In this document: positions 3 to 62,184 of the stretch, piece by piece
Position numbering within the stretch: position 1 is the stretch's first letter
How the letters are laid out: each line of letters begins with the position of its first letter
Source of the DNA: Candidatus Omnitrophota bacterium
GTDB taxonomy: Bacteria > Omnitrophota > Gorgyraeia > Gygaellales > Profunditerraquicolaceae
Direction: 5' to 3'
Assembly (NCBI GenBank): GCA_040754255.1
Contig: JBFMDA010000001.1
Span: 2,535 to 66,534 of the forward strand
Length of the DNA: 64,000 bases
Notes under the pieces: model-generated
Seen by the model: the letters and a program-made list of their open reading frames with translations, nothing else
Database searches by the model: none
What the model was told of the DNA's origin: nothing
Program-made: the position numbers and the translations under genes

Positions 3-803
3 GAAGATGCGCTCAATGAGCTTATGGCAGCGCAAGGCGGGTTTAATCATAACCTGCAGGGATTACGGGTAGTGGACCTCCTTGAGGAACGATACCCTGA
101 TTACCCCGGCCTGAACTTGAACTGGGAGGTAAGAGAAGGCATAGTCAAGCATTCATCCGCATTTGATAAGAGCCTCAAGCGCAAGGACCTAGCCCCCGAC
201 GAATTACCTACCCTTGAGACCCAGGTTGTCGATGTGGCAGACGAAATCGCCTACGACAATCACGATATTGACGACGGAATTACGTCGGGCTTACTGAAGG
301 AATCGGAACTGGCTGAAGTGCCGTTATGGGACAATATTTATAGGGAAATTTCCAAGAAATATGGTACAATGGAAGAGAATAAAAGAAAATACCTGATAAT
401 TCGCTCGCTCATTGATATGCAGGTAACCGATTTGATTGATACTTCACTTAAGAAGCTGCAAGCCCTGAAACCGGCAAACCATATGGAAGTAAAAAGGTTA
501 CGGGAGAAGATAATCACCTTCAGCCGCAAAGTGGAGGAGCAAAGGGTGCCTTTAAGGAAATTTCTGATTTCCAAATTATACCAACACTACCGAGTGGTAA
601 GGATGAGCGAAAAGGCAAAACATTTTATCGGGGAGTTGTTCGCTGTGTATATATCGAAACCAAAGGCTTTACCGTTTGCCGTCCAGAAGAGGATCGCTAT
701 CGACGGAAAAAAGAGGGCGGTCTGCGATTATATCGCCGGCATGACAGACAGGTACGCATTAGATGAGTACAAGAAATTATTTGACCCCTACGAGAAGGTA
801 TAA
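3..803 (+). CDS. dgt: dGTP triphosphohydrolase-like HD-domain phosphohydrolase, C-terminal portion (5' end outside window)
   Basis: Frame of ORF 24..803 stays open to the window edge. C-terminal region resembles Dgt/HD phosphohydrolase family (LNLNWEVREGIVKHS, DNHDIDDGI). Confidence 0.55.
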   Translation, partial: EDALNELMAAQGGFNHNLQGLRVVDLLEERYPDYPGLNLNWEVREGIVKHSSAFDKSLKRKDLAPDELPTLETQVVDVADEIAYDNHDIDDGITSGLLKESELAEVPLWDNIYREISKKYGTMEENKRKYLIIRSLIDMQVTDLIDTSLKKLQALKPANHMEVKRLREKIITFSRKVEEQRVPLRKFLISKLYQHYRVVRMSEKAKHFIGELFAVYISKPKALPFAVQKRIAIDGKKRAVCDYIAGMTDRYALDEYKKLFDPYEKV

Positions 804-1824
804 AAGGTTAATTTCGGCGATTCACAGCGTGTATCGACTGGTGAACTCGACGTTCGAATTGAAGGACCTCGTGATCCGCCTGGCGAGGCTGGTGTGCCAG
901 ATCCTTGACGCCAGGTATTGCGTCATCCTTATCCTTGACCCCACCAAGAAGTTTTCAAGCTTCCGGTGCATCGTAAGCGGCAGGACCAAGAAAGTCATCG
1001 ATAATAAACAAAAAATCACAAACGGGCTAGAGAAAAAGATTATAGACAGGCTTGTGACGGTTCGCAATCATCACCTGCTTGGGCTTCCCCTTATCTCCGA
1101 GGATGTAATGGGCTTAATTATTGTAAAAAGAGGGACACATCAGGCCGCATTTGACAACTACGACCAGGATACGCTAACCGCCATGCTTGAGCAGGTTATG
1201 ATAGGAATCAAGAATATGCAGCTATACGTAGAACAGCAAAAGATAGTGCTCGGCAGCCTGAAATCATTGGTTTCGCTCCTTGATAAGCGCGTACCCCAGG
1301 AATATACGCATTCGTCGTATTTCAGCAAGCTGGTTACCATGATATCACACCAGATGAATATTGACCAGAAACAGGCTGAGAGCATCGAATATGCCAGCCT
1401 TCTCCATGATGCAGGAAAGGTCGACATCCCGCTTGAGATACTTACCAAGACGTCAAAGCTCACGCCCCAGGAATTCCGTATTATTAAAACGCACCCGATA
1501 AAGGGGGTCCAGATATTACGGCCCCTGCAGGTTCTAAAACCGGCAATACCCATTATCATGCATCATCACGAAAAGTTTGACGGGACAGGGTACCCGTCGA
1601 AACTGAAAAAAGGGCAGATTCCCCTCGGCGCCAGGATAATGGCGGTTGCCGATGCGTTCGAGGCGATGGTATACGGCAGGCCGTATCGGGAAAGGATGAA
1701 TATCGATAAGGCGATCAACGAAATACGAAAGAAAAGCGGTACCCAGTTCGACCCCCGCGTAGTTGAAGCATTCATGAAAATTTCTAAAAAGGTCGCAAAA
1801 AAATACTTGCAACTGAGGAAATAG
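763..1824 (+). CDS. GAF-domain HD-GYP phosphodiesterase (cyclic-di-GMP signalling)
   Basis: HDAGK and HHHEKFDGTGYP motifs (HD-GYP) with a GAF-like N-terminal half. The first ATG overlaps the upstream gene by 41 nt, so the start is uncertain. Confidence 0.7.
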   Translation: MSTRNYLTPTRRYKRLISAIHSVYRLVNSTFELKDLVIRLARLVCQILDARYCVILILDPTKKFSSFRCIVSGRTKKVIDNKQKITNGLEKKIIDRLVTVRNHHLLGLPLISEDVMGLIIVKRGTHQAAFDNYDQDTLTAMLEQVMIGIKNMQLYVEQQKIVLGSLKSLVSLLDKRVPQEYTHSSYFSKLVTMISHQMNIDQKQAESIEYASLLHDAGKVDIPLEILTKTSKLTPQEFRIIKTHPIKGVQILRPLQVLKPAIPIIMHHHEKFDGTGYPSKLKKGQIPLGARIMAVADAFEAMVYGRPYRERMNIDKAINEIRKKSGTQFDPRVVEAFMKISKKVAKKYLQLRK

Positions 1825-5204: not shown

Positions 5205-5696
5205 TTAACGGCGGTTGGTGAGTACAACAGGGCCTTCCGGAGTGCTTAACTCTACTGAATCCACAGTGATTTTTTCTACTGTTGCGCCATCCACTCTTTC
5301 TCTCAACCTCACAATTTGATTGTTCACAAGGGCATAGTTGTCATTCCCGGAAGAAAATATCCCGTTTAAGACGTATTGCTCTCTGGGCTCAACCTGCGGC
5401 AAGGTTTCGTTTTCTACTACCGCAGGTGCCGGGGTGGAAGGGGCGGGCGTTTCAGCCGTAGCAGGATCAGCAGGTAAAGGCTGCGTAGTTTCTACGGCGG
5501 GCAGCGTAATCGGTAGCGGAGGGAAAAGGTAATCAAACCCTTTTTTGGCAATAAACATTCCCACGATCGCAAGGATTATATATACGGCAATCGGTTTATT
5601 GTGTGCCTTTTGAACAATAAAGGATGAGCCGGGCTGTCCTTTATGTTGTGCAGGATGTGTACCTAGTTTTTTTAACGCTTCGTAGATAATACTCAT
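5205..5696 (-). CDS. GspB/ExeB-like protein (partner of ExeA ATPase)
   Basis: Likely start MSIIYEALKK matches the GspB N-terminal motif. TM helix then Pro-rich region. Overlaps upstream ExeA-like gene by 4 nt. ORF-track start at 5738 is probably too long. Confidence 0.5.
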   Translation of the reverse strand: MSIIYEALKKLGTHPAQHKGQPGSSFIVQKAHNKPIAVYIILAIVGMFIAKKGFDYLFPPLPITLPAVETTQPLPADPATAETPAPSTPAPAVVENETLPQVEPREQYVLNGIFSSGNDNYALVNNQIVRLRERVDGATVEKITVDSVELSTPEGPVVLTNRR

Positions 5697-6517
5697 AGGA
5701 TAGTCGGCTGCAGGGAGGTTTCGAGTTCCGCGATACATTTTTTGACAAGGCTTGCGTCAATCGCCCTTACCTCCGCGACGAACCCCGCCAAAAGCGAACG
5801 GTCGCAAATAATATTGATCAGGCGCGGCGTGCCTTTCGAAAAATCGGCAATCAATTCGATCGCATCATCCTTGAATACGACGCTATCATCGGCGCCGGCG
5901 ACTTTTAGCCGGTGGCCGATGTATTCTGCAAGTTCCTTTTTTTCTATGGGCGTTATGTGGTAGCGTACCATTATTCTTTGTTGCAGCTGCCGTAATTCAT
6001 AGAGGCTTAATTTACGGTTCAGTTCAGGCTGGCCGACCAGTATTATTTGGATGAGCTTATCCTTTTCGGTCTCAAGGTTAGAAAGCAGGCGGACCTGTTC
6101 GAGTTGATGAGGTTTTAAATTCTGGGCTTCATCAATAATAAGCACCACGTTATTCCCGGCCTTGGCTTCCTCAATCAAGAACCTGTTTAGCTCCCAGATA
6201 AAACCCAGCCTGGTTTTATTCTTGATTTGCACTCCAAAATCCCTGACAATCGCCTCAAGCAGCTGAAGTTCGGAAAAGTTCGGGTTTAATATAAAAGCAG
6301 TTTTTACATTTTTCCCCAGTTGATCAAGGAAAAACCTGCACAGCGTAGTCTTGCCGGTGCCGATTTCCCCGGTTATGACCATTATTCCTTTGCGTTGGTT
6401 CACCCCGTAGAGCAGGTGAGAGAGCGCTTCTTTATGCTGATGGCTCATAAAGAAGAAGGTAGGATCCGCAGTGACATTGAAAGGCATTTCCTTGAGTCCG
6501 TAAAATTCACAATACAT
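5693..6517 (-). CDS. ExeA/GspA-family AAA ATPase
   Basis: MYCEFYGL...PFNVTADP...VITGEIGTGKTTLCR Walker A and IIDEAQNL Walker B. Paralogous to the ATPase at 43997..45001. Start taken at the internal Met (ORF track gives 6568). Confidence 0.7.
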   Translation of the reverse strand: MYCEFYGLKEMPFNVTADPTFFFMSHQHKEALSHLLYGVNQRKGIMVITGEIGTGKTTLCRFFLDQLGKNVKTAFILNPNFSELQLLEAIVRDFGVQIKNKTRLGFIWELNRFLIEEAKAGNNVVLIIDEAQNLKPHQLEQVRLLSNLETEKDKLIQIILVGQPELNRKLSLYELRQLQQRIMVRYHITPIEKKELAEYIGHRLKVAGADDSVVFKDDAIELIADFSKGTPRLINIICDRSLLAGFVAEVRAIDASLVKKCIAELETSLQPTIL

Positions 6518-6601
6518 CGTTTCCTCTGTTTTCCCTATTATAACAGAAAAAAATATTTTGTAAAGCACCAGCTTGAGTATTTCTATTTCTGAAAATAACT
6601 G

Positions 6602-24753: not shown

Positions 24754-25593
24754 ATGAAGTTGACAATTAAAGAAATCCGGAATAAAAAGAACGATAAAGA
24801 AAAAATCGCCTGCCTCACCGCGTATGATTTTCCGTTCGCCAGCCTGGTGGATCAGGCAGGCATCGATATAATCATTGTGGGCGATTCCCTTGCCAATGTG
24901 GTGCTTGGGCTTGAGTCAACCAAAGACATAGGGATAGAAGAAGTACTCTATCACACCAAAGCAGTCACCCGCGCCGCTACGCGTGCGCTGGTAATCGCTG
25001 ACATGCCTTTCTCGGCATACCAGACCGAACCGGATAAGGCGCAAGGAAACGCCAAACGGCTGACAGAAGAAGGGGGCTGCGATGCGGTTAAGGTAGAGTG
25101 GTTTGACCTCTGCATCAATGTGACACGAGCAATTATCAATTCAGGCATTCCGGTAATGGGCCATATCGGCCTTACCCCCCAGACTGCGGATAAAATCGGC
25201 GGATTTAAAGTGCAAGGCAAAGACGCTGAGCGCGCAACAGAGCTCCTTACACAGGCAAAGCTCTTTGAAGAGGCCGGCTGTTTTTCGATTGTGCTTGAAT
25301 GTGTCCCCGATAAAATCGCAGGGCTCATCACGGAAAAACTCTCTATTCCTACTATCGGTATCGGTGCAGGGCCCCATTGCGACGGCCAGGTCCTGGTGCT
25401 GCATGATATACTCGGGTTATCAAAAGGTTCAAAATTTAAATTCGTCAAGCAATATACTGACGTGTCAGCCGTTGTGCAGGAAGCAATCGCACGCTACAAG
25501 AACGAGGTGTTGAACGGTTCATTCCCCGATAATGCGCACAGTTTTTCGATTTCGCCCGAAGAATTTACAAAACTAAAAAACTCCTTCTTCTGA
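24754..25593 (+). CDS. panB: 3-methyl-2-oxobutanoate hydroxymethyltransferase
   Basis: CLTAYDFPFASL, VGDSLANVVLG and HIGLTPQ motifs. Confidence 0.85.
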   Translation: MKLTIKEIRNKKNDKEKIACLTAYDFPFASLVDQAGIDIIIVGDSLANVVLGLESTKDIGIEEVLYHTKAVTRAATRALVIADMPFSAYQTEPDKAQGNAKRLTEEGGCDAVKVEWFDLCINVTRAIINSGIPVMGHIGLTPQTADKIGGFKVQGKDAERATELLTQAKLFEEAGCFSIVLECVPDKIAGLITEKLSIPTIGIGAGPHCDGQVLVLHDILGLSKGSKFKFVKQYTDVSAVVQEAIARYKNEVLNGSFPDNAHSFSISPEEFTKLKNSFF

Positions 25594-26318
25594 TGAAAAA
25601 GAAATACGCTAGATTTTTGCCGTGGATAGTGGTGTGGGGCGCAGCTATCCTTGTGATCACCACCTTCGGCAAGCCCTACGTGTTAAAAACCTATGTTGAA
25701 ATGGGTATCGGCACCTGCAATAAAATCCCGGTCTTATGCATTGTGCCGACAAAAGGGTTTACCAATCCTGCCGTTGACAAAAGCTATATCGCGGGGCTTG
25801 CAAGATACTCAATAGAGGAAATCGAAATCGCCCTTCCCAAAGATTTTTTCGTAATCAAAGAACAAATTTACAGGGCCTATTACAAAAAACGCAAGCGCAC
25901 CGAAAAAGACCCCGTCGCCTACCTGTTGTATCAGAAGCCGGATTTTTTCCAGTCGCTTTTCCCGCAGCTTAAGAAACTGAATCTCAGGAACAATTACGAT
26001 TTCTTAAACCGCATCCTTAACGCAAGGACTTCCGATATCAAAGACCTGCCCAGCACGCTCTTTGTGATACTGAAAAGTATTTTTACGCCCGACGTCGGAC
26101 CGGGCAGCGACATAAAAATCGCCCGGTTTAGCATGGCGGACAAAAGAGGGTTCATTACCTACAACTATACAAAAGAAGGCAATTACTTCAATTGCGATAT
26201 CGTAAACGGCAATCAGGAATTTTTCAAGGTATACCTCAAAGACAAGCAGAAAAAGCTGGATATAGATAAGGTACTTGCAATTATTTCTACGCTGCGTAGG
26301 AATAGCGAGAGAGGCTAA
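25593..26318 (+). CDS. hypothetical membrane-anchored protein
   Basis: Long ORF with an N-terminal TM segment. No recognisable domain. Confidence 0.4.
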   Translation: MKKKYARFLPWIVVWGAAILVITTFGKPYVLKTYVEMGIGTCNKIPVLCIVPTKGFTNPAVDKSYIAGLARYSIEEIEIALPKDFFVIKEQIYRAYYKKRKRTEKDPVAYLLYQKPDFFQSLFPQLKKLNLRNNYDFLNRILNARTSDIKDLPSTLFVILKSIFTPDVGPGSDIKIARFSMADKRGFITYNYTKEGNYFNCDIVNGNQEFFKVYLKDKQKKLDIDKVLAIISTLRRNSERG

Positions 26319-26527: not shown

Positions 26528-26595
26528 AACTATAGCGATTTTTTGTAATTTATGATAGAATACTACTTCGTGTTTATCCCTAAAAAGGAGATGCC

Positions 26596-27996
26596 ATGCT
26601 GACTCGGCACGATATACCGGAAAGAAGAAAAGACTACAGGCTCTATTCCCGTATACACGTCAAATTTGCATTCCAGAACGCCCAGGATAACGCAAAGAGG
26701 GAAAAGAATCTCCTTGCCACAAATATCAATACAGGAGGGATTTACCTGGAGAGCGAAGAGATATTTCCCCTGAATATGGAGGCAACGGTCAGTTTTCGCC
26801 TCCCTAAGAGCGAGACTACTGTCCAGGCCGCAATCAAGATCGCCCGGATTGAGGCCCTTGATGAAGGCAGGTCATTCGGCTTAGGCTGCGTATTCACCAA
26901 ACTCGACGACACGCACAAGCAGGAAATCCAGCAGCTGATCGAAAAGTTCAATATCGGCAAATTGCTGGAGTTGGCTATCAAACGAGGCGCTTCCGATCTC
27001 CACGTACTCGCAGACCATGTGCCTGTCTTGCGGGTAAACGGGGCACTGGAAGAAGTAGATGGACCAAGCCTCACCTCTGAAGAGATTCCGCAGCTACTTT
27101 TCAGCCTGATGACCAAACAACAGATAAGGCGTTTCGAAAAAGAGAAAGAGCTGGATTTCGGCATTCAATACGATGTCCGCAACCGCTTCAGGGTCAACAT
27201 ACACCAGCAACGGGGGTTCCTGGAGGCGACACTCAGGCTTATCAATACCAAGGTTTCTTCGTTCGAAGAACTCAACATTCCCGACGTCGTCAAGGACCTG
27301 GCAAGGCAAAGAGACGGCTTAATACTATTGGTAGGCCCCACAGGAAGCGGTAAAACGACCACTATGTCGGCGATGGTTGAGCTTATTAACCGGGAAAAAC
27401 GGGCGGTTATTATCACGCTTGAGCGCCCCATCGAATACGTGCATCCGAACATCAAGAGCATTATCAAACAGCGCGAAGTCGGCGTTGATACGAACTCCTT
27501 TTCCGCCGCCATCAAAAGCAGCCTCAAGCAGGACCCCAATATCATAGTCATCGGAGAGCTCGAGGATGCCGATTCAGTAAGGACCGCGCTTATCGCCGCT
27601 GAAGCCGGTTATTTAGTCATCGCATCGTTCCATTCGCCGAATACCATGCAGGCGATCGACCGGTTAGTCAGCTTTTTCCCGCTTGAGGCAAGGAAACAGG
27701 CCCTCTCGCAGCTGTCAAACTGCCTGAAGGGGATAATCTCGCACCTCTTAATACCGCGTAAAGACCGCAACGGCAGGCTTCTGGCTACCGAAATCATTGT
27801 TGCCAATGATGCGGTAAAAAGGATCATCCGCAAGGACGAGCTTTTCCAGCTGCCGACCATTATCCAGACCAGCGGCGCATACCGCATGCAGTCAATGGCA
27901 GACTCGATACGAAGGTACCTTGAAATGGATATTATTGATTCCGAAGCAGCGATGTTTTATTCGGAAGAATTCAATAAATACGGGCAGACAAAATAA
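26596..27996 (+). CDS. PilZ-domain / PilT-type type IV pilus retraction ATPase fusion
   Basis: N-terminal PilZ (RRKDYR ... NINTGGIY). C-terminal PilT/PilU ATPase (LLVGPTGSGKTTT Walker A). 466 aa versus about 345 for PilT alone. Confidence 0.75.
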   Translation: MLTRHDIPERRKDYRLYSRIHVKFAFQNAQDNAKREKNLLATNINTGGIYLESEEIFPLNMEATVSFRLPKSETTVQAAIKIARIEALDEGRSFGLGCVFTKLDDTHKQEIQQLIEKFNIGKLLELAIKRGASDLHVLADHVPVLRVNGALEEVDGPSLTSEEIPQLLFSLMTKQQIRRFEKEKELDFGIQYDVRNRFRVNIHQQRGFLEATLRLINTKVSSFEELNIPDVVKDLARQRDGLILLVGPTGSGKTTTMSAMVELINREKRAVIITLERPIEYVHPNIKSIIKQREVGVDTNSFSAAIKSSLKQDPNIIVIGELEDADSVRTALIAAEAGYLVIASFHSPNTMQAIDRLVSFFPLEARKQALSQLSNCLKGIISHLLIPRKDRNGRLLATEIIVANDAVKRIIRKDELFQLPTIIQTSGAYRMQSMADSIRRYLEMDIIDSEAAMFYSEEFNKYGQTK

Positions 27997-27997
27997 T

Positions 27998-29302
27998 ATG
28001 GCTGATGTAATGGATAAGATTGTTTCACTGTGCAAGCGCCGGGGATTTATCTTTCAGGGAAGCGACATCTACGGCGGGCTCGCCAATACCTGGGATTACG
28101 GCCCTTACGGTGTTGAGCTTAAGAACAACGTAAAGCGTGCCTGGTGGAAGGCAAACGTGTATGAGCGCGACGACATATTGGGCATGGACGCCTCAATCCT
28201 TATGCATCCGAAGGTCTGGGAAGCGTCCGGCCACGTGAAGAACTTTTTTGACCTCAAGCGCGACTGTAAATCCTGCAAAAAAAGGTTCAAGGACGCTGAC
28301 CTTAAGAATAAAAACAAGTGCCCCGAATGTGGGGGAGAGCTTACCGAAAGCAGGCCTTTTAACCTGATGTTTGAAACGCACGCAGGCGCAGTATCTGATG
28401 AAGCAAGCCTTATTTACTTAAGGCCGGAAACCGCGCAGGGGATGTTTGTTAATTTCTTAAATATCCTTGATTCCAGGCACCCGAAACTGCCATTCGGCCT
28501 GGCACAGATAGGGAAGGCATTTCGCAACGAAATCACGCCCGGCAACCTCACTTTTAGGACGCGGGAATTCGAACAGATGGAGATAGAGTATTTCGTAAGG
28601 CCTGAGGATGCGGATAAAAAACTACAAGAATGGATTGAACTGCATTTTGAATGGTACTTAAACTACGGAATTAAAAAGGAGAACTTAAGGAAACGGCCGC
28701 ATGGCCCTGAGGAGCTGGCACATTACGCAAGAGCGTGCACTGATATCGAATACAATTTTCCGTTCGGCTGGTCCGAGCTTGAAGGGATTGCCAACCGCAC
28801 TGATTTTGATTTAAAACAACATGCCGAATCCAGCGGCCAGGATTTGAGGTATTTTGACGATAAGGCCAAGGAACGTTTTTATCCCTACATCATTGAGCCT
28901 TCCGGCGGCGTTGACAGGACAGTGCTGGCATTTTTAGTCGATGCCTATCACGAAGAACAGGTCAAAGATGACACACGCGTAGTGCTTGCGCTGGATAAAG
29001 GCCTTGCCCCCGTAAAAGCGGCAGTGCTGCCCCTTTTAAAAAACAGGCCCGAGATCGTCGAGTTGGCGCGCGCAATCTCCAAAGACCTGAAACAACATAT
29101 GGTTGCGGTGTATGACGATACTGCTGCCATAGGAAAGCTCTACCGCCGGCAGGACGAAGTGGGAACACCATTCTGTGTCACGATAGACGTGCAGTCTCTT
29201 GAAGACAAAAAGGCCACTGTCCGCGACCGCGATTCGATGCAGCAGGAGCGGATCAGCGCAGATTCGTTAAAAGACTACTTGTTACAGAAACTGAACGGAT
29301 AG
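27998..29302 (+). CDS. glyQS: glycine--tRNA ligase, alpha2 homodimeric type
   Basis: MADVMDKIVSLCKRRGFIFQGSDIYGG N-terminus. Class II motifs. Start moved to the ATG at 27998, just after the upstream stop. Confidence 0.85.
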   Translation: MADVMDKIVSLCKRRGFIFQGSDIYGGLANTWDYGPYGVELKNNVKRAWWKANVYERDDILGMDASILMHPKVWEASGHVKNFFDLKRDCKSCKKRFKDADLKNKNKCPECGGELTESRPFNLMFETHAGAVSDEASLIYLRPETAQGMFVNFLNILDSRHPKLPFGLAQIGKAFRNEITPGNLTFRTREFEQMEIEYFVRPEDADKKLQEWIELHFEWYLNYGIKKENLRKRPHGPEELAHYARACTDIEYNFPFGWSELEGIANRTDFDLKQHAESSGQDLRYFDDKAKERFYPYIIEPSGGVDRTVLAFLVDAYHEEQVKDDTRVVLALDKGLAPVKAAVLPLLKNRPEIVELARAISKDLKQHMVAVYDDTAAIGKLYRRQDEVGTPFCVTIDVQSLEDKKATVRDRDSMQQERISADSLKDYLLQKLNG

Positions 29303-33808: not shown

Positions 33809-33882
33809 GCCCCTGTAGCTCATAAGGATAGAGCAGCAGTTTCCTAAACTGCGTGCGGCAGGTTCGATTCCTGCCAGGGGCA
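33809..33882 (+). tRNA. tRNA-Arg (anticodon CCT)
   Basis: Hand-folded cloverleaf: 7-bp acceptor GCCCCTG/CAGGGGC, D-arm GCTC/GAGC, anticodon loop TTCCTAA, T-arm GCAGG-TTCGATT-CCTGC, discriminator A. CCA not encoded. Confidence 0.8.
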
Positions 33883-36450: not shown

Positions 36451-38007
36451 ATGATTTATCTCGCACTGATCTTCCACATGCACCAGCCCTACTACAAAAA
36501 CCTCCTGACCCAGGAGACGCCGGTGCCATGGGTGCGGCTGCACGGTACCAAGGACTACCTGGATATGGTCAGGATCCTTGATAACTACCCCGGCATCCGG
36601 CAGACCTTTAACCTGGTACCGTCGCTCCTTGAGCAGCTGGAAGATTATGTGGCCGGCACCATCAAAGACAAATTTTTAGAGCTTTCCTATAAGCCTGCCA
36701 AAGATCTGACTACAGAAGACAAATCCTTCATCCTTGAGCGCTTTTTTAGTATCCATAAAGAAACAGTCATCGCCTTTCATCCCCGTTATTATGAATTGTT
36801 TTTTAAGAAACAGAATAAAAAGGAGTTCAGTACACAGGATTACCTTGACCTGCAGGTATGGTTTAACCTTTCCTGGATAGACCCTTCCTTTCGAGACGAG
36901 CGGCCACAGTTAAAGCGCCTGGTGGACAAGGCGCGGTTCTTTACCGAAGAGGAAAAACTCTCCTGCCTTGAAGCGCAAAAAGAGATACTCGGGCAAATCA
37001 TCCCCGCATACAAACAAGCAAAAGAACGCGGCCAGATTGAGATTACCGTAAACCCCTATTACCATCCCATTTTGCCGCTTCTCTACAGCACTAATACCGC
37101 CAGGGAGGCTAACCCAAAAAGTGTGCTGCCTAAAACCGCGTTCTCGTATCCTGAAGACGCACAGTCACAGATTGATTCGGCAGTAGAGTTTTACAAAGAG
37201 CGCTTCGGCACGCTACCCGAAGGGATGTGGCCTTCTGAAGAAGCGGTCTCTGAACACATATTGCCCTTTATCATTAATGCCGGGATACAGTGGATCGTAA
37301 CAGACGAAGGCGTGCTTTTTAAATCGCTTAAGAAAAAGAAGCGCGATACCAAACTGTTATACCAGCCGCACCTGTTAAGAAGAGAAGGGGGCAACCTGCA
37401 CGTTGTGTTCCGCGACCGCAACCTTTCTGATCTCATCGGCTTTGTCTATTACAACCTGAAGGCAGAAGACGCGGTGAGTAATTTCATCGGGCACTTTGAA
37501 AATATCAATAAGGCGTTCAAGGGGCAGGATGTCCTTGTCACCCTTGCCATGGACGGAGAAAATGCCTGGGAATATTATTATAACGACGGCCATAACTTCC
37601 TTGAGCTTCTCTATAAGCGGCTTTGTGAATCAGAGATCATCAAAACAGTAACAGTCAGTGACTACATTAAACGCAAACCTGCCACACGCGCCCTCAAACA
37701 CCTTGCTGCCGGCTCCTGGATATATTCGGAATTCTCAAAATGGATTAATAACACCTATAAGAATAAGGCCTGGGAATACCTTTCAAAGGCACGTCTGGAA
37801 TTGAAACTTAACGCGGATAAGCTTGACGAGCGCGCAAAGCAGCTGGCATACAAGCAGATATACATCTGCGAAGGCTCTGACTGGTTCTGGTGGTATGGCG
37901 ACCGCGAAAAGGACTTCGATTACCTCTTCCGCATGCATTTATCTAACTTCTATACCATTATCGGTAAGCCAACCCCGGAGTATCTCAAGACCCCCCTTGA
38001 ACCGTAA
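36451..38007 (+). CDS. glycoside hydrolase family 57 enzyme (alpha-glucan branching / 4-alpha-glucanotransferase-like)
   Basis: N-terminal GH57 signature ALIFHMHQPYY...PWVRLHGTKDYLDM. 518 aa, similar in size to GH57 branching enzymes. Confidence 0.75.
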   Translation: MIYLALIFHMHQPYYKNLLTQETPVPWVRLHGTKDYLDMVRILDNYPGIRQTFNLVPSLLEQLEDYVAGTIKDKFLELSYKPAKDLTTEDKSFILERFFSIHKETVIAFHPRYYELFFKKQNKKEFSTQDYLDLQVWFNLSWIDPSFRDERPQLKRLVDKARFFTEEEKLSCLEAQKEILGQIIPAYKQAKERGQIEITVNPYYHPILPLLYSTNTAREANPKSVLPKTAFSYPEDAQSQIDSAVEFYKERFGTLPEGMWPSEEAVSEHILPFIINAGIQWIVTDEGVLFKSLKKKKRDTKLLYQPHLLRREGGNLHVVFRDRNLSDLIGFVYYNLKAEDAVSNFIGHFENINKAFKGQDVLVTLAMDGENAWEYYYNDGHNFLELLYKRLCESEIIKTVTVSDYIKRKPATRALKHLAAGSWIYSEFSKWINNTYKNKAWEYLSKARLELKLNADKLDERAKQLAYKQIYICEGSDWFWWYGDREKDFDYLFRMHLSNFYTIIGKPTPEYLKTPLEP

Positions 38008-58438: not shown

Positions 58439-59777
58439 AATCACTCTACGCAAAATTCCTTATCCTTACAAAGCCGCCTTGGCCATATGTAGCGATTTAG
58501 ATAAAATAAATCGTGAAAAATTTGACCAAATACACGACTTTCTTTCCTCGAATAAGCCTACTTTACTTGGTAATGGACTAGAATTAGAAATCGCGGATTC
58601 ATTCTGGATGTACTCCTCTAGCAGTGACACAGTAAACGCTTTTTCATATTTTGAAGGAATAAGTGAAAAACCTTCTTATAATGCGATTAAAATTGAAGAA
58701 ATGATTTCAGCCGGTTTTATAGACTCTTTGCATACTTACGGAGATTTCAGCGAATACCCGGGCTTTAATCGCGAATTGGCAAAGCGTGCCTTAGCCCAAA
58801 TGCATAAAAAAAACATGAAGATCTCTGTATGGATTAATCATGGGAATATACATAATTTTCAGAATATCGGGATTAAAACAGCTCTTGGAGATGTAGAATA
58901 TATTTCTGCCGTTGATGGCGGTAAAAGAAAGTGTATTGAGTATCATGCTGACTTAACGCTTCCCTTCGGATTTAAGTACTTATGGATTGATGAACTTACT
59001 GAAATTGTAGGTCAGGAAAGGCCATGTGGGATAATTGAAGCAGTTTTTTCAAAGCTATTTGAATCTAAGCCTACGAAGTCACTTTTCCACAAGTTAATGC
59101 TAATCTTGGTTCCATTTTTATTAATTCTTCAAAATAAATTATCTTTGAAACTAAAAATAAATGTAGTCCTGAATAAACTATTTCCAAAAGCCTTTAATGG
59201 TAACAATGATTTAATAAAAGTAATTACGTTGAGGGACGGTCAAAAAGCTTATTCTTTCAAAAGATATGGACGTTTCGGGGTTGATAATGCCGATGCCCTG
59301 CCTAAGCTTTTGTCTAAGCCTACTTTGAAAAAATTAAAACATAATATGGGAATTATGGTACTATTTGTGCATCTTGCTAAAAGTGATAACCAGAAAAATA
59401 TCTTTTCTACCCAAGCTTGTGATGCTCTGCGATATCTTTCAGCTCAAGAAAAGAGCGGACAGATATATGTAACTACTACTAGTAAACTATTGCATTATAC
59501 TGTTTTGAAAAAATTTTTGAAATGGAGGGCCCAACATAGACCCGATGAAATAGAGATTATCATAGAAAAAGTAGAGGATCCTGTGTACGGAGATTACATC
59601 CCTACCGTACAACAACTACAAGGAATTACTTTTTATGTACCGGATGCCCAAAAAATATCTGTAAGTATTAATGGTAACAAAATACCTGTAAGCCGGAACT
59701 TACCTGATTTTACCGGTAAAGAATCCGTAACCATTCCGTTAACCCGGCTTAAGTACCCGAACAATATAAATGCATAG
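58428..59777 (+). CDS. hypothetical protein (possible carbohydrate-modifying enzyme; function unassigned)
   Basis: 449-aa ORF co-oriented with and overlapping its neighbours. No confident motif. Confidence 0.35.
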   Translation: MKDKITLRKIPYPYKAALAICSDLDKINREKFDQIHDFLSSNKPTLLGNGLELEIADSFWMYSSSSDTVNAFSYFEGISEKPSYNAIKIEEMISAGFIDSLHTYGDFSEYPGFNRELAKRALAQMHKKNMKISVWINHGNIHNFQNIGIKTALGDVEYISAVDGGKRKCIEYHADLTLPFGFKYLWIDELTEIVGQERPCGIIEAVFSKLFESKPTKSLFHKLMLILVPFLLILQNKLSLKLKINVVLNKLFPKAFNGNNDLIKVITLRDGQKAYSFKRYGRFGVDNADALPKLLSKPTLKKLKHNMGIMVLFVHLAKSDNQKNIFSTQACDALRYLSAQEKSGQIYVTTTSKLLHYTVLKKFLKWRAQHRPDEIEIIIEKVEDPVYGDYIPTVQQLQGITFYVPDAQKISVSINGNKIPVSRNLPDFTGKESVTIPLTRLKYPNNINA

Positions 59778-62184
59778 ATTAATTCTATTATTAGCTATTT
59801 TTCTTAATACAGTAGGTTTTAGTATTGCCGGCAATATTCCTATTGAGGAAGACGGCAAAAATATTCTAAGTTCCCACCCTAGGATCTTTATTAATTCATT
59901 TAATATTGGAGAGCATCGAGAAAAGGTACAGTGGCTGCTTAGTGATCCTTTTGAGCGATTAATAAAATCGAAGCAAACCAAGGTCCCGCAAAGATTGACG
60001 CGCCTGAAAGACTATATCTATAAAAATGCGTATCTTTACCAAATAACGGGAGATAAAAAGTGGGCAGAACATGTTATCGAAGCCATGGAGCAACTTCCAA
60101 AATCGCTTCAGGCTTATGGAAGCAACGAAGATAGTAGCTTTGCTCATGCCTTAGAGGCATGGTCCATAGGATTTGACTGGTGTTATGATCAGATAGTCGC
60201 ATCTGGTAAAAAAGATCAGTTCGTTACATGGATAAATAATTATTTTTTAAAAGTACGCGATAATTTAAGTATTTTACCTGATTTTCATAATTACGCCAGT
60301 CAAGACGAATTCGCTATTCTCGCTGCCGGCCTCGCCACTTACGGCGACAATCCGCAAGCGCCTCACTATATCAACCTGGCAAAAGATATTATGGAAAGAG
60401 GCAAAGAAAGAAATGGGATAGTTTATAATGTAGCCGAATCTATTAAGTTTGTTGATGGAACCTGCAATTGGGAAGGAGTAACATATGGCAGGCAGCAGTT
60501 GTTTAATTATTTTAAATATGCTGAAGCCTGGAGAACTGCAACGAATAATACAATAAACCCCTGGCAGGGCGTTTTTGCTAAATTGGAAAACGCCGGTTAT
60601 TATATAATATACAGCCTGAGGCCCGATGATAAATTCGAAAATTTAGCCGACATATCTTATCCGCGTATTTCATATTATGACATAAATAACCTTGCTGCCC
60701 TTGAGAGCCGGTTCAAAAACGGCTATTTCACTGCTTTTATCAATAAATATTATCGTTGGAGTAGCGGTAAACTTATAACAGATATTTGGCTTGGCCGTTT
60801 TGACTCATCCTTGGTTTATTATCTTTTATGGTATGACCCGAAGATAAAAGAAAAGGACCTCGAAGAACTTCCAAAAACAAGAAAATTTGGCGATGTAATT
60901 ATAATGAGAACGGGTTTTAAGAAAACCGATACAATGCTATCCTTTAAAAGCGGAATCCATTGGGGCTTTCATTCGCAGCTTGACCATGGTTCTTTTACGA
61001 TATACAAAGATGTGCCCCTGGCGATTGATAGCGGTTACTATGACAGTTGGGGCTCGGGTAAAGAACACAATTGGAGCTATTGGAAAAGAACTATTGCCCA
61101 CAACTCCCTTCTTATTTATGATGCAACAGAGAAACGGGTTACCTATCCAAGAAACAATATCTGCAGCAATGACGGAGGCCAAAGAATGGCTTTTATAACA
61201 TTTTCGCCTCCATATATTAAAACGGGGAGTACTAATAAACCGGTAAGCATTCAACATTTAAACAAACATCTTGAAGAATTCTTAATGGGAACATTCAGTG
61301 CTTACGAATTCACTAGTAGCTATGATTACGTTAAAACAGATATTACTAAAGCATATAATAATGTGTACAGTGGAAAAGGGACAAACCAGCCAAGGAAAGT
61401 AGATTTAGTACAGAGAGAGTTTGTATATTTAAAACCAGATATTGTCGTTGTTTTCGACAAAGTATATGCGGCAAAGGACAGTTTAATAAAAAAATGGTTG
61501 TTACATAGCGGGAGCTACTATGATAAATCAGCGCAGCCTGTTCTAAATGGAAGAGAAAAAGTGCTGAAGGGGACAGTAGATCAGGGCATTACAGAATCAA
61601 CAGATACTGACCTGACTACTATAACAAGAGGCCGTGGCAGGTTATTTATAAAAACATTGTTGCCCAAAAATCATGTAACGAGAAAAATAGGCGGGCAGGG
61701 ATACGAATTCTGGGTAGACGATAAAAACGCACCTATTTCTTCAAAAATCATTCCCTTAGAGAGACAGTCCGAAGATCCAGGGGCGTGGCGGATAGAAATA
61801 CAGCCAAAAGAAAAGCAAAAAAATGATTTTTTTCTTCACTTAATTTCTATTTCTAATTCTGAGGTTTCTTCAATGCCCGATGCCACAATGATACAAACAA
61901 ACTCAAAGAATATGATAGGTATTCGGCTTATTTCCAAAAGTGATAATTTTCACTACATTGTTATGTTTAATTCAACTAAAGAAAGCATCAAAAATGCTGA
62001 TTTAGATATTGGCGGAGAGGGCAAAATAAAAGCCTTACTTTCCGGACTTCAGCCTTCAAGCAAATACGATATCTTAAGAAATAATCAGTTTTTAGAAAAC
62101 GGGGTATCCGCTGCTGAAGGAACATTGTATTTTGACTTGGATCTAAGTGGAAACAAGAATCTCTTTTCTATCCGCTTAAAATAA
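59770..62184 (+). CDS. secreted heparinase II/III-like polysaccharide lyase family protein
   Basis: Signal peptide. N-terminal alpha/alpha toroid region. Central Hepar_II_III-type block HGSFTIYKDVPLAIDSGYYD...IAHNSLLIYD. Confidence 0.6.
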   Translation: MHRLILLLAIFLNTVGFSIAGNIPIEEDGKNILSSHPRIFINSFNIGEHREKVQWLLSDPFERLIKSKQTKVPQRLTRLKDYIYKNAYLYQITGDKKWAEHVIEAMEQLPKSLQAYGSNEDSSFAHALEAWSIGFDWCYDQIVASGKKDQFVTWINNYFLKVRDNLSILPDFHNYASQDEFAILAAGLATYGDNPQAPHYINLAKDIMERGKERNGIVYNVAESIKFVDGTCNWEGVTYGRQQLFNYFKYAEAWRTATNNTINPWQGVFAKLENAGYYIIYSLRPDDKFENLADISYPRISYYDINNLAALESRFKNGYFTAFINKYYRWSSGKLITDIWLGRFDSSLVYYLLWYDPKIKEKDLEELPKTRKFGDVIIMRTGFKKTDTMLSFKSGIHWGFHSQLDHGSFTIYKDVPLAIDSGYYDSWGSGKEHNWSYWKRTIAHNSLLIYDATEKRVTYPRNNICSNDGGQRMAFITFSPPYIKTGSTNKPVSIQHLNKHLEEFLMGTFSAYEFTSSYDYVKTDITKAYNNVYSGKGTNQPRKVDLVQREFVYLKPDIVVVFDKVYAAKDSLIKKWLLHSGSYYDKSAQPVLNGREKVLKGTVDQGITESTDTDLTTITRGRGRLFIKTLLPKNHVTRKIGGQGYEFWVDDKNAPISSKIIPLERQSEDPGAWRIEIQPKEKQKNDFFLHLISISNSEVSSMPDATMIQTNSKNMIGIRLISKSDNFHYIVMFNSTKESIKNADLDIGGEGKIKALLSGLQPSSKYDILRNNQFLENGVSAAEGTLYFDLDLSGNKNLFSIRLK

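What the first reader, a model, noticed from the sequence alone, without database searches (positions are those of the whole stretch)
26596..27996. PilT-type retraction ATPase with an N-terminal PilZ c-di-GMP receptor domain
- The N-terminal 110 aa carry both halves of the PilZ signature (RRKDYR and NINTGGIY).
- They are fused to a complete PilT/PilU ATPase.
- A direct c-di-GMP input on a pilus retraction motor would be a compact control mechanism.
- An HD-GYP phosphodiesterase is also encoded in this window (763..1824).
- No other pilus genes are adjacent, so the ATPase may act on a different fibre or secretion system.
Basis: partly seen in the sequence, partly recalled or inferred. Interest (0 to 1): 0.55.

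Follow-up and report, generated by a model that had tools for sequence, protein, structure and literature searches.

The report
PilZ-fused PilT-like pilus motor ATPase

Summary
ORF 26596..27996 (+, 466 aa) carries an N-terminal PilZ domain (Pfam 37.2 bits, cut-off 22.5) joined by about 2 residues to a PilT/PilU-family ATPase (TIGR01420 369.6 bits, cut-off 319.1). The predicted fold matches c-di-GMP-bound PilZ domains and PilT4. The fusion is not a one-off. All 120 best homologues are about 460 aa and nearly all carry both domains. At least 35 species genomes, almost all Omnitrophota, have it, and Zixibacteria has more distant copies. Fused proteins form one clade in a tree of ATPase cores. R11, R15 and G48 are among the best-conserved PilZ residues. 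The window protein has N where the motif has S, as do 30 of 121 members.

- Close relatives also encode a canonical, unfused PilT, so this is a second, diverged paralogue.
- The ATPase is rewired. The "invariant" Arg beside Walker B is acidic in 121/121, and the Asp-box Asp is Arg/Lys in 121/121.
- Missing pilus neighbours are uninformative, because the canonical PilT is also unlinked.

Most likely it is a c-di-GMP-gated accessory motor or regulator of type IVa pili. I found no paper describing it. I rate it a new variant of a known kind, of moderate interest.

The parts
26596..27996 (+). PilZ-PilT fusion gene (466 aa, stop codon included). It is identical to NCBI MEW6074697.1, which is named only 'PilT/PilU family type 4a pilus ATPase'.
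26586..26590 (+). Shine-Dalgarno AGGAG, 5 nt upstream of the ATG. It supports the annotated N-terminus.
   Evidence: orthologue N-termini align at the same Met
26620..26946 (+). PilZ domain (aa 9-117): six beta-strands (aa 16-103) followed by a C-terminal helix (aa 105-117).
   Evidence: Pfam. AF2 models with pLDDT 84 and 86. Foldseek top hits are c-di-GMP-bound PilZ domains.
26623..26640 (+). R10-R11-K-D-Y-R15, the (R)RxxxR c-di-GMP-binding loop. It is predicted to be disordered in the apo model.
   Evidence: R11 is present in 110/121 and R15 in 115/121 family members. Both are at 90% or more in the distant fusions. pLDDT is below 50 for aa 1-11.
26722..26739 (+). N43-I-N-T-G-G48, the [D/N]xSxxG motif with N in place of S.
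   Evidence: D/N43 is present in 121/121 and G48 in 112/121. Position 45 is S in 86, N in 30 and T in 4. The N45 subset keeps the other motif residues at the same rate.
26947..26952 (+). Two-residue junction (aa 118-119) between the PilZ C-terminal helix and the first helix of the PilT N-terminal domain.
   Evidence: AF2 secondary structure: helix 105-117, then helix 120-129
26953..27258 (+). PilT N-terminal (N2-type) domain, aa 120-221, with invariant Arg fingers R199 and R214.
27259..27975 (+). PilT C-terminal ATPase domain, aa 222-460.
27334..27360 (+). Walker A, GPTGSGKTT (aa 247-255). K253 is invariant.
27415..27438 (+). Asp box, TLERPIEY (aa 274-281). E276 and E280 are invariant. R277 replaces the Asp of the canonical (I/V)EDPIE.
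   Evidence: R in 118 and K in 3 of 121
27532..27567 (+). Atypical Walker B plus catalytic Glu, DPNIIVIGELED (aa 313-324). E321 is invariant. E323 replaces the 'normally invariant' Arg (Pa/Vc R206) of GEMRD.
   Evidence: D in 93 and E in 28 of 121; PMC6762196
27601..27633 (+). His box, EAGYLVIASFH (aa 336-346). H346 is conserved in 120/121. The first His is Y (91/121) and the Thr of ETGH is A (105/121).
27811..27840 (+). AVKRIIRKDE (aa 406-415), a diverged counterpart of the PilT AIRNLIRE motif. R412 is invariant.
763..1824 (+). GAF(weak)-HD-GYP phosphodiesterase with intact HD and GYP motifs. It belongs to the organism's c-di-GMP turnover but is not physically linked to the fusion gene (25 kb away).
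27998..29302 (+). Glycyl-tRNA synthetase gene, whose ATG starts 2 nt after the last base of the PilZ-PilT stop codon. This neighbour is conserved across the family and is probably co-transcribed.

Best explanation

The proposed mechanism has three steps.
1. c-di-GMP binds between the flexible (R)RxxxR loop and the [D/N]x(S/N)xxG face of the beta-barrel, probably as an intercalated dimer because an Arg or Lys precedes RxxxR.
2. Binding orders the loop and re-orients the PilZ barrel. The barrel's C-terminal helix runs almost directly into the first helix of the PilT N-terminal domain.
3. PilT function depends on which open or closed packing of N-terminal and C-terminal domains the hexamer adopts, and on docking to the PilC/PilM platform. 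The re-orientation would therefore bias the motor's conformational cycle or its access to the pilus base.

The organism also has an ordinary PilT. The fused protein most likely acts on the type IVa pilus as a second, c-di-GMP-conditional motor or modulator of retraction, rather than as the housekeeping retraction motor.

Shown here: the domain architecture, the folds, conservation of ligand-binding and catalytic residues, monophyly of the fusion, co-occurrence with a canonical PilT, and GGDEF/HD-GYP enzymes in the lineage.

Inferred: c-di-GMP binding, the T4aP machine as the target, and the allosteric route. The direction of the effect (activation or inhibition) is unknown.
For: Architecture and fold:
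- Both profiles score above their curated cut-offs.
- The AF2 model has pLDDT 84. The PilZ part is six strands plus a helix, followed after 2 residues by the PilT N-terminal-domain helix.
- The N-terminal (aa 1-150) model hits MotI/DgrA, Alg44, MapZ, MrkH, PA0012, PP4397, PlzA, BcsA and VCA0042, mostly c-di-GMP complexes.
- The ATPase part matches PilT4 with a target-normalised TM-score (TMt) of 0.92.

Selection on the binding site:
- The PilZ domain averages only 40% pairwise identity, yet R15 (95%), G48 (93%) and R11 (91%) are among its ten most conserved positions.
- The same residues are at 90% or more in 26 distant fusion clusters sharing 31-49% identity. Of those, 25 of 26 hit Pfam PilZ.
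- The N45 variant keeps R11, R15 and G48 at the same rate as the S45 variant.

One ancient fusion: 34 of 35 fused proteins fall in one clade of 36 tips in an NJ tree of 167 ATPase cores. The two other tips are N-truncated fragments.

Spread:
- All 120 best homologues have the fused length, and nearly all carry both precomputed domains.
- At least 35 species-representative genomes carry it.
- Candidate division Zixibacteria has it too.

Catalytic competence: Walker A Lys, both Asp-box Glu, the catalytic Glu and both Arg fingers are invariant, and the second His-box His is present in 120/121.

c-di-GMP turnover in the lineage:
- An intact HD-GYP gene is in the window.
- Both sister genomes encode a PAS-GAF-GGEEF-HD-GYP protein.
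- An HD-GYP gene lies two genes upstream of the Zixibacteria fusion.

Second paralogue: sister genomes encode an unfused PilT that scores 364 bits to PilT4, against 272 bits for the fused protein, and it has all canonical motifs.

Precedents in the literature:
- c-di-GMP acts on pilus extension ATPases through N-terminal MshEN domains (PMC11656802).
- A PilZ protein binds PilT and PilU in trans in Xanthomonas (PMC3749722).
- PilT activity depends on packing between its N- and C-terminal domains (PMC6858323).
Against: - No binding or activity data exist, and the organism is uncultured.
- The window protein has N instead of the canonical Ser in [D/N]xSxxG. I know of no tested PilZ with that substitution.
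- No pilus gene lies within 64 kb, nor near any family member examined. The target machine is therefore assigned by homology alone.
- The family lacks the Walker-B-adjacent Arg. Its loss (R206S) in V. cholerae PilT mimics a hydrolysis-dead motor. It also has an acidic residue where PaPilT R123D abolishes twitching. It may therefore not be a competent retraction motor.
Confidence: 0.55

Rival explanations
1. It is an attenuated or non-motor PilT paralogue that works as a c-di-GMP-dependent brake or clutch. The hexamer would occupy the PilC/PilM socket, or form mixed or stacked assemblies with the canonical PilT or PilB, according to c-di-GMP level. It would do so with little ATP hydrolysis of its own. 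This would be analogous to YcgR or MotI on the flagellar motor, but built from a motor paralogue.
For: - Pa/Vc R206 is described as 'normally invariant', and R206S behaves like a Walker-B-dead PilT. In this family that position is D/E in 121/121.
- The residue aligned to Pa R123 is D/E in 117/121. R123D kills twitching and weakens PilC binding in PaPilT.
- The His-box Thr and first His, which sense the neighbouring subunit, are changed to A and Y.
- A canonical PilT coexists in sister genomes.
- Some distant fused members have clearly degenerate Walker A or Asp-box motifs.
- The best structural match of the PilZ part is the flagellar clutch MotI/DgrA.
Against: - Every residue known to be directly catalytic is invariant or nearly so over 121 sequences. 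That is hard to explain without selection for hydrolysis.
- The lost Arg is matched by a gained Arg/Lys at the Asp-box position in 121/121, and the two never co-occur in the wider sample. This looks like a compensatory relocation rather than a loss.
- R123 is not universal in working PilTs. By the same alignment, the position is M in Aquifex PilT and N in the sister-genome canonical PilT.
Confidence: 0.2
2. The ATPase serves a machine other than the type IVa pilus. Candidates are the type II-secretion-like or Tad-like systems that are abundant in Omnitrophota, or a DNA-uptake apparatus. c-di-GMP would then gate that process.
For: - There is no linkage to pilus genes anywhere in the family.
- Omnitrophota carry conserved T2SS/T4P-like loci next to giant genes, with small pilZ genes downstream (10.1101/2023.11.21.568195). 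They also carry Tad systems.
- The ATPase is diverged from canonical PilT.
Against: - The protein passes the PilT/PilU T4aP-ATPase model. It scores far below cut-off for GspE, PilB, TadA-type, DotB and VirB11 models.
- pilT genes are commonly unlinked to pilus genes, and the organism's canonical PilT is unlinked too.
- T2SS and Tad systems normally use GspE-type or TadA/CpaF-type ATPases, not PilT-type ones (established knowledge).
Confidence: 0.13
3. The PilZ domain no longer senses c-di-GMP. It would serve only as a protein-protein adaptor or localisation module, as in P. aeruginosa PilZ (PA2960) and Xanthomonas XAC1133, which bind PilB without binding c-di-GMP.
For: - The window protein deviates from the canonical motif (N for S).
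- About one third of family members lack a perfect [D/N]xSxxG.
- In Xanthomonas, the PilZ-PilT/PilU effect did not need c-di-GMP binding.
- Non-binding PilZ domains that act on pilus ATPases are documented (10.1101/814665).
Against: - Documented non-binding PilZ domains have lost the RxxxR loop altogether. Here R11 and R15 are at 91-95% in a domain of 40% identity, and they remain at 90% or more in distant clusters.
- The fold is the complete six-strand barrel plus helix, not the divergent type.
- S and N interchange without decay of the other motif residues.
Confidence: 0.1

Closest known systems
PilT type IVa pilus retraction ATPases (P. aeruginosa PilT 3JVU/3JVV, G. metallireducens PilT4 6OJX/6OK2, G. 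sulfurreducens PilT-4 5ZFQ, A. aeolicus PilT 2EWV)
   Same: - The two-domain ATPase fold matches, with TMt up to 0.93.
- phmmer E-values are 1e-71 to 6e-81 over aa 118-458, and the Foldseek structural alignments show 38-39% identity.
- The protein passes TIGR01420.
- Walker A, both Asp-box Glu, the catalytic Glu, the second His-box His, both Arg fingers and the last Arg of AIRNLIRE are all conserved.
- There is no N1/MshEN domain and no tetracysteine motif.
   Different: - It carries an extra 117-aa N-terminal PilZ domain.
- The Asp-box Asp is Arg/Lys, and the Walker-B-adjacent Arg (R206) is Asp/Glu.
- ETGH reads EAG(Y/H), and AIRNLIRE reads A(V)KR(I)IR(N/K).
- An acidic residue sits at the Pa R123 position.
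- It coexists with a canonical PilT in sister genomes.
PilU, the PilT-dependent accessory retraction ATPase
   Same: - It is a second PilT-family paralogue that coexists with a canonical PilT.
- It has a diverged AIRNLIRE region; PilU lacks the motif (PMC6762196).
- It hits P. aeruginosa PilU 9N32 with E 4e-65.
   Different: - It scores higher to PilT than to PilU structures (276 against 224 bits).
- It is not encoded next to pilT.
- PilU has no PilZ domain.
- Dependence on PilT is untested.
MshE / PilB / PilF extension ATPases with an N-terminal MshEN (GSPII) c-di-GMP-binding domain
   Same: The design principle is the same: a c-di-GMP receptor domain sits at the N-terminus of a PilT/VirB11-like hexameric motor, upstream of the N2 domain, and gives direct second-messenger input to pilus dynamics (PMC11656802; PMC4624772 and PMC11731258 listed).
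   Different: - The receptor fold is different: a PilZ beta-barrel here, against the helical MshEN. No PF05157 hit was found.
- The motor belongs to the retraction-type (PilT) clade, not the extension (PilB/MshE) clade.
- Among near relatives, 7 other PilT-like cores do carry MshEN.
Xanthomonas campestris PilZ protein XC_2249, which interacts with PilT and PilU
   Same: A PilZ domain contacts PilT-family retraction ATPases to modulate pilus motility, within an HD-GYP/GGDEF signalling context (PMC3749722). The fusion here is the 'Rosetta-stone' version of that pairing.
   Different: - In Xanthomonas the partners are separate proteins.
- The interaction needs GGDEF proteins.
- c-di-GMP binding by XC_2249 was not required for the effect.
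YcgR and MotI/DgrA, PilZ brakes or clutches of the flagellar motor
   Same: - A PilZ domain converts c-di-GMP level into direct mechanical control of a motility motor.
- MotI/DgrA is the top structural match of the PilZ part (5VX6, E 7e-6).
   Different: - Those are stand-alone PilZN-PilZ proteins that act in trans on flagellar stator or rotor proteins.
- Here a single PilZ is covalently part of a pilus-type ATPase.
FimX-PilZ-PilB complex (Xanthomonas, Pseudomonas)
   Same: c-di-GMP signalling proteins, including a PilZ-fold protein, bind a T4P motor ATPase (PMC8389850).
   Different: - That PilZ lacks the c-di-GMP motifs, and the ligand is bound by FimX instead.
- The target is the extension ATPase PilB.
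- The components are separate proteins.

Membership tests
PilZ domain (PF07238), canonical c-di-GMP-binding type | Match to the curated PilZ profile above the gathering score | tested here: met
   The score is 37.2 bits against 22.5, covering profile positions 1-101 of 102. Of the distant fusions, 25 of 26 also match.
PilZ domain (PF07238), canonical c-di-GMP-binding type | RxxxR motif in a flexible N-terminal loop | tested here: met
   R11-K-D-Y-R15 is preceded by R10. R11 is present in 110/121 and R15 in 115/121. Residues 1-11 have low confidence and look disordered.
PilZ domain (PF07238), canonical c-di-GMP-binding type | [D/N]xSxxG motif on the barrel | tested here: inconclusive
   The window protein has N43-I-N45-T-G-G48, so D/N and G are present but S is replaced by N. 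In the family, position 45 is S in 86, N in 30 and T in 4 of 121. The N variants keep the other motif residues. The effect of S to N on binding is unknown.
PilZ domain (PF07238), canonical c-di-GMP-binding type | Six-stranded beta-barrel followed by a C-terminal alpha-helix | tested here: met
   AF2 predicts strands 16-27, 34-44, 48-53, 62-68, 75-87/88 and 93/94-103, then helix 105-117. Foldseek top hits are solved PilZ domains.
PilZ domain (PF07238), canonical c-di-GMP-binding type | Binds c-di-GMP | not testable with these tools
   This needs DRaCALA, ITC or MST on purified protein.
PilT/PilU family type IVa pilus ATPase (TIGR01420) | Match to the curated family model above its cut-off, and not to the PilB, GspE, DotB, TraJ or VirB11 models | tested here: met
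   The score is 369.6 bits against 319.1. All other secretion-ATPase models fall far below their cut-offs.
PilT/PilU family type IVa pilus ATPase (TIGR01420) | [quoted passage not shown] | tested here: met
   K253, E276, E280, E321, R199 and R214 are invariant in 121 sequences, and H346 is present in 120/121.
PilT/PilU family type IVa pilus ATPase (TIGR01420) | Conserved non-catalytic signature residues of working PilTs: Asp of EDPIE, Arg of GE(M/L)RD (R206), and Thr and first His of ETGH | tested here: not met
   R/K replaces Asp in 121/121. D/E replaces R206 in 121/121. Ala replaces Thr in 105/121. Tyr replaces His in 91/121. The functional importance of R206 comes from PMC6762196.
PilT/PilU family type IVa pilus ATPase (TIGR01420) | AIRNLIRE motif (PilT proper, absent from PilU) | tested here: inconclusive
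   The sequence is AVKRIIRK. A, the basic third residue, I and the last R are kept, while N and E are not.
PilT/PilU family type IVa pilus ATPase (TIGR01420) | Powers retraction of a type IVa pilus | not testable with these tools
   There are no pilus genes in the 64 kb window. T4aP is reported as common in the phylum (PMC10066038). The complete genome could not be scanned.
MshEN-type c-di-GMP-binding secretion ATPases (MshE/PilB/PilF) | N-terminal MshEN/GSPII domain (PF05157) | tested here: not met
   There is no PF05157 hit at E up to 1. The N-terminus is a PilZ barrel. The protein may work like this class but is not a member.
YcgR/MotI-type PilZ motor brakes | Stand-alone PilZN plus PilZ protein acting on the flagellar motor | tested here: not met
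   This is a single PilZ domain covalently fused to an ATPase. The similarity is limited to the fold.

The most novel reading that the evidence does not exclude
The Omnitrophota PilZ-PilT clade is not a retraction motor. It would instead be a c-di-GMP-operated clutch built from a motor paralogue. Its nucleotide-sensing network is rewired: the R206 position is acidic, the Asp-box Asp is Arg, and the His-box Thr and His are changed. With that network it would bind the PilC/PilM socket, or the canonical PilT or PilB hexamer, only in one c-di-GMP state. Pili would then be locked in the extended, attached state (or released from it) while these ultra-small, host-dependent cells sit on their hosts. 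That would be a new class of pilus regulator, and the first direct second-messenger switch on the retraction side of the machine.
Probability: 0.2. Interest if true: 0.75.

Novelty: new variant of a known kind. Interest (0 to 1): 0.55.

Why it matters
Direct c-di-GMP control of type IV pili is so far documented on the extension side. It works through MshEN domains of MshE/PilB/PilF and through FimX/PilZ on PilB. A recent review argues that regulation should favour extension over retraction (PMC11656802).

A conserved, monophyletic subfamily in which the receptor is welded onto a PilT-type ATPase suggests that second-messenger input on the retraction-type motor exists and is under selection. 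It occurs across a whole phylum of ultra-small, probably host-attached bacteria, in which type IVa pili are thought to mediate attachment (PMC10066038).

The fusion also acts as a 'Rosetta stone' for the poorly understood PilZ-PilT/PilU interaction seen in trans in Xanthomonas.

The hypothesis is directly testable in vitro even though the organisms are uncultured. The tests are ligand binding, ATPase assays with and without c-di-GMP, and cryo-EM of the hexamer.

The family-wide relocation of an active-site Arg gives a natural experiment on the role of R206 and the Asp box in PilT-like motors.

Public annotation calls these proteins plain "PilT/PilU family" ATPases, so the feature is currently invisible to annotation-based surveys.

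Tried and rejected
- Gene neighbourhood as a guide to the target machine. I examined the window, three Omnitrophota loci, the Zixibacteria locus and three distant fusion loci. None has pilus or secretion genes, so this is uninformative. The two AAA_22 genes, which I first suspected to be ExeA/MshM-like, best match the XrtA/PEP-CTERM exopolysaccharide ATPase model.
- An upstream riboswitch or structured RNA. Rfam finds only a tRNA in the window.
- Promoter and terminator scan around the gene. It found no more sites than expected by chance.
- Genome scan with the alignment of aa 1-150 (A2). The full-length alignment A1 was used instead.
- AFDB fold search for named organisms with the two-domain fold. 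The library was unavailable.
- Measuring the distance between R277 and E323 in the model to test the salt-bridge-swap idea. Structure prediction gives no coordinates. The idea rests only on co-variation.
- Literature. Seven full-text searches and the PilZ-diversity paper (10.1101/814665) gave no description of a PilZ-PilT fusion. This is absence within the searchable library only.
- Assembly chimera or mis-called start. Rejected because of the single ORF, the good Shine-Dalgarno sequence, and more than 100 orthologues with co-linear N-termini.
- R123D as strong evidence for a dead motor. This was tempered because R123 is not universal in working PilTs: by the same alignment, the position is M in Aquifex PilT and N in the sister-genome canonical PilT.
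Full report
**1. The observation**

The ORF 26596..27996 (+) is real and encodes 466 aa. An AGGAG ribosome-binding site lies 5 nt upstream of the ATG.

Pfam PilZ (PF07238) matches aa 9-116 over the whole model. The score is 37.2 bits against a gathering score of 22.5, and 41 bits for the isolated N-terminus. NCBIfam TIGR01420 (PilT/PilU family type 4a pilus ATPase) matches aa 120-458 with 369.6 bits against a cut-off of 319.1. The models for PilB, GspE, DotB, TraJ, ComGA and VirB11 all remain far below their cut-offs.

The HD-GYP gene at 763..1824 is also real. It hits HD_5 with 151 bits, has a weak GAF match, and carries intact LLHDAGK and HHHEKFDGTGYP motifs.

One correction is needed. The second PilZ motif is N-I-N-T-G-G, so the canonical Ser of [D/N]xSxxG is Asn in this protein.

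**2. Fold**

An AlphaFold2 model built on 46 orthologues has mean pLDDT 84.3.
- Residues 1-11, which include most of the RxxxR loop, are predicted to be disordered.
- Six beta-strands (aa 16-103) are followed by helix 105-117. This is the canonical PilZ layout described by Galperin and Chou (10.1101/814665).
- After only two residues, helix 120-129 opens the PilT N-terminal domain.

The full-length model matches G. metallireducens PilT4 with a target-normalised TM-score (TMt) of 0.92-0.93. It also matches P. aeruginosa PilT and PilU. No solved chain covers both parts.

A separate model of aa 1-150 (pLDDT 86.1) hits almost only solved PilZ domains. These are MotI/DgrA, Alg44, MapZ, MrkH, PA0012, PP4397, PlzA, BcsA and VCA0042, mostly crystallised with c-di-GMP.

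**3. A family, not a one-off**

All 120 best homologues in the 5.8-billion-protein set are about 460 aa and 54-94% identical to the window protein. Nearly all carry PilZ plus T2SSE. Those with names are Candidatus Omnitrophota MAGs.

The exact protein is public as MEW6074697.1. It is named only "PilT/PilU family type 4a pilus ATPase".

A scan of 185,579 species-representative genomes returned 333 relatives. Among the best 80, at least 35 are full-length fusions. Almost all are Omnitrophota; a few MAGs are labelled Planctomycetales, Deltaproteobacteria or Patescibacteria.

The window is 95.7% identical in DNA to isolate STD1_201 and about 85% identical to SURF_25.

Against 1.84 billion 50%-identity representatives, the close family collapses into one cluster. 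About 25 further clusters of 448-506 aa align end to end at 33-46% identity.
- They carry an N-terminal PilZ by my own HMM.
- 25 of 26 carry it by Pfam.
- One of them is from candidate division Zixibacteria.

In a neighbour-joining tree of 167 ATPase cores, 34 of 35 fused proteins fall into a single clade of 36 tips. The two other tips are N-terminally truncated fragments, and the canonical PilTs lie outside. The tree has no bootstrap support, so this is indicative. It points to one ancient fusion that founded a distinct PilT subfamily.

**4. Is the PilZ domain a c-di-GMP receptor?**

Across the window protein and 120 orthologues:
- R11 is present in 110, R15 in 115, D/N43 in 121 and G48 in 112.
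- Position 45 is S in 86, N in 30 and T in 4.

The PilZ domain is the fastest-evolving part of the protein. Its mean pairwise identity is 0.41, against 0.58 and 0.67 for the two ATPase domains. Even so, R15, G48 and R11 are among its ten most conserved positions.

Sequences with N45 keep R11, R15 and G48 as often as those with S45: 28, 29 and 27 of 30, against 77, 81 and 80 of 86. S and N therefore appear interchangeable, and the N variant does not look like a sign of decay.

In the 26 distant fusion clusters, the two Arg and the Gly are still at 90% or more.

Documented non-binding PilZ domains have lost the RxxxR loop and part of the barrel. That is not the case here.

R or K precedes RxxxR in 111 of 121 sequences. 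From the PP4397/VCA0042 work (my own knowledge; the relevant structures 3KYF and 3KYG appear), this predicts binding of an intercalated c-di-GMP dimer.

The lineage can make and break the ligand.
- An HD-GYP gene is in the window.
- Both sister genomes encode a 1235-1244-aa PAS-GAF-GGEEF-HD-GYP protein with intact motifs.
- An HD-GYP gene lies two genes upstream of the Zixibacteria fusion.

Binding itself remains an inference.

**5. The ATPase is complete but rewired**

I used the ungapped alignments to five solved PilTs and P. aeruginosa numbering.

The directly catalytic residues are invariant or nearly so in 121 sequences. These are Walker A K136, Asp-box E159 and E163, catalytic E204, His-box H229 (120/121), both Arg fingers, and R294 of AIRNLIRE.

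Several residues that are constant in working PilTs are systematically replaced:
- The Asp of (I/V)EDPIE is Arg or Lys in 121/121.
- The Arg of GE(M/L)RD (R206) is Asp or Glu in 121/121.
- The Thr of ETGH is Ala in 105/121.
- The first His-box His is Tyr in 91/121.
- The position of R123 is Asp or Glu in 117/121, with Lys or Arg one residue earlier in 114/121.
- AIRNLIRE reads A-V-K-R-I-I-R-(N/K).

Two of these positions have been tested experimentally. Adams et al. call R206 a "normally invariant arginine" beside Walker B, and the natural R206S allele of V. cholerae MO10 behaves like a hydrolysis-dead PilT (PMC6762196). McCallum et al. found that R123D abolishes twitching and weakens PilC binding (PMC6858323). 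R123 is not universal, however. By the same alignment, the position is M in Aquifex PilT and N in the sister-genome canonical PilT.

In a wider sample of 150 representatives, a basic residue at the Asp-box position never co-occurs with Arg at the R206 position. This fits a compensatory charge relocation between neighbouring residues. I could not measure the distance, because no coordinates are returned.

The R/acidic swap marks the window's own clade. More distant fusions are heterogeneous, and some have plainly degenerate ATPase motifs.

**6. A second paralogue**

The genomes of STD1_201 and SURF_25 each encode an additional, unfused PilT (L077, L078).
- It scores 364 bits to PilT4, against 272 bits for the fused protein.
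- It has IEDPIEF, GEMRD, ETGHL and AMRNLIRE intact.

The fused protein is therefore not the organism's standard retraction motor. One lineage even has two tandem PilZ-PilT genes. The second copy has a weaker PilZ motif (NMNSES) and Walker A GPTNSGKTT.

**7. Context**

The gene sits in a conserved housekeeping block: PanB, a family-less protein of about 240 aa (absent in some genomes), PilZ-PilT, GlyRS, PPDK, a sigma-70 factor and a phosphoribosyltransferase. The GlyRS ATG starts 2 nt after the last base of the PilZ-PilT stop codon.

No pilus gene occurs in the 64 kb window, and none occurs near any family member examined. The canonical PilT of SURF_25 is equally unlinked, and unlinked pilT genes are common in model organisms (my own knowledge). 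The absence of neighbours therefore says little about the target machine.

Seymour et al. report type IVa pilus genes in nearly all Omnitrophota and propose a role in attachment to hosts. Their paper does not mention PilT, PilZ or c-di-GMP (PMC10066038).

**8. Mechanism**

Best-supported reading (confidence 0.55): c-di-GMP binds the PilZ domain. The near-rigid helix-to-helix junction passes the change on to the PilT N-terminal domain. PilT activity and PilC binding depend on which open or closed packing of N- and C-terminal domains the hexamer adopts. The ligand would therefore bias the motor's conformational cycle or its docking, and so make pilus retraction dynamics conditional on c-di-GMP. 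The protein would act alongside the canonical PilT.

The closest functional analogy is the MshEN domain on extension ATPases. The closest physical precedent is the PilZ-PilT/PilU interaction in trans in Xanthomonas.

The sign of the effect cannot be deduced.

The main rival (0.2) is that the rewired paralogue is a poor ATPase and serves as a c-di-GMP-dependent brake or clutch. Lesser rivals are a non-T4aP target (0.13) and a PilZ domain that no longer binds the ligand (0.1).

**9. Novelty and score**

Seven full-text searches and the PilZ-diversity paper gave no description of a PilZ-PilT fusion. The architecture is visible only as precomputed Pfam hits.

Both parts are well-known families, and c-di-GMP control of pili is established on the extension side. 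A 2024 review argues that regulation should favour extension. I therefore rate this a new variant of a known kind.

It is widespread, conserved, monophyletic and uncharacterised. The unusual relocation of an active-site Arg adds a second testable point.

Interest is 0.55. A specialist would find it noteworthy rather than astonishing. It makes c-di-GMP input to a retraction-type motor directly testable in vitro.

Noticed in passing
window 41743-63348 (+): A large exopolysaccharide cluster coincides with a drop in G+C from about 0.47 to 0.32-0.38. It contains Poly_export/SLBB, Wzz/GNVR, an AAA_22 ATPase, a tyrosine autokinase, two PaaK/F390-synthetase-like adenylating enzymes, a GNAT protein, glycosyltransferases, a flippase, a Wzy-like polymerase and a HepB-like lyase (59770-62184). 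The best NCBIfam hits are the XrtA/PEP-CTERM set (pepcterm_export, ChnLen, ATPase, TyrKin), all just below their cut-offs. No exosortase or PEP-CTERM substrate was looked for.
   Followed up: partly
window 5696-6568 (-) and 43997-45001 (+): Two paralogous AAA_22 ATPases each score about 309 bits to TIGR03015 (XrtA/PEP-CTERM system-associated ATPase, cut-off 324.5). One lies in the EPS cluster. The other is isolated, next to a 177-aa protein with no family match (5205-5738, -).
   Followed up: partly
L001 10001-12784 and L002 1669-4452: One Omnitrophota lineage has a tandem duplication of the PilZ-PilT gene. The second copy is 64% identical to the first. Its PilZ motif is weakened (NMNSES, G to S) and its Walker A reads GPTNSGKTT.
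   Followed up: partly
L078 7590-11294 and L077 7905-11639: In both sister genomes a 1235-1244-aa PAS(x3-4)-GAF-GGEEF-HD-GYP protein with intact motifs lies two genes downstream of the canonical, unfused pilT. A DUF1622 gene sits between them.
   Followed up: partly
L085 5552-9434 (Zixibacteria-type contig): The distant PilZ-PilT fusion of candidate division Zixibacteria is preceded by an HD-GYP gene and an EpsI (exosortase-associated) family gene. The window also combines this fusion with a PEP-CTERM-like EPS cluster about 14 kb away. This may be coincidence.
   Followed up: no
proteins P0122-P0269 (representative search): Many PilT-like cores carry other additions. Tandem PilT-PilT proteins of 660-1020 aa occur. 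Seven cores have an N-terminal MshEN domain, three have a receiver domain, and at least one has DUF4388. Sensor domains on retraction-type ATPases therefore seem broader than the literature suggests.
   Followed up: partly
window 25593-26318 (+): A 241-aa protein with an N-terminal hydrophobic segment has no Pfam or NCBIfam match. It lies directly upstream of the fusion gene. It is syntenic in L001 and L002 but absent in L003 and L004.
   Followed up: partly
window 39156-40235 (+), with 36451-38007 (+): A ParA/MinD-type ATPase (AAA_31, CbiA, BcsQ-like) is fused to a C-terminal glycogen-binding module (AMPK1_CBM/CBM48). It lies close to a GH57 glycoside hydrolase. This is an unusual pairing and may relate to positioning of glycogen granules.
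   Followed up: no
window 33809-33882 (+): A single tRNA gene is the only Rfam match in the window at gathering threshold.
   Followed up: no
window 24-803 (+) and 763-1824 (+): The HD-GYP ORF overlaps the end of an upstream ORF that carries an HD_assoc (dGTPase-type) domain by about 40 nt. The upstream ORF may run off the window start, and the true HD-GYP start may lie further downstream.
   Followed up: no
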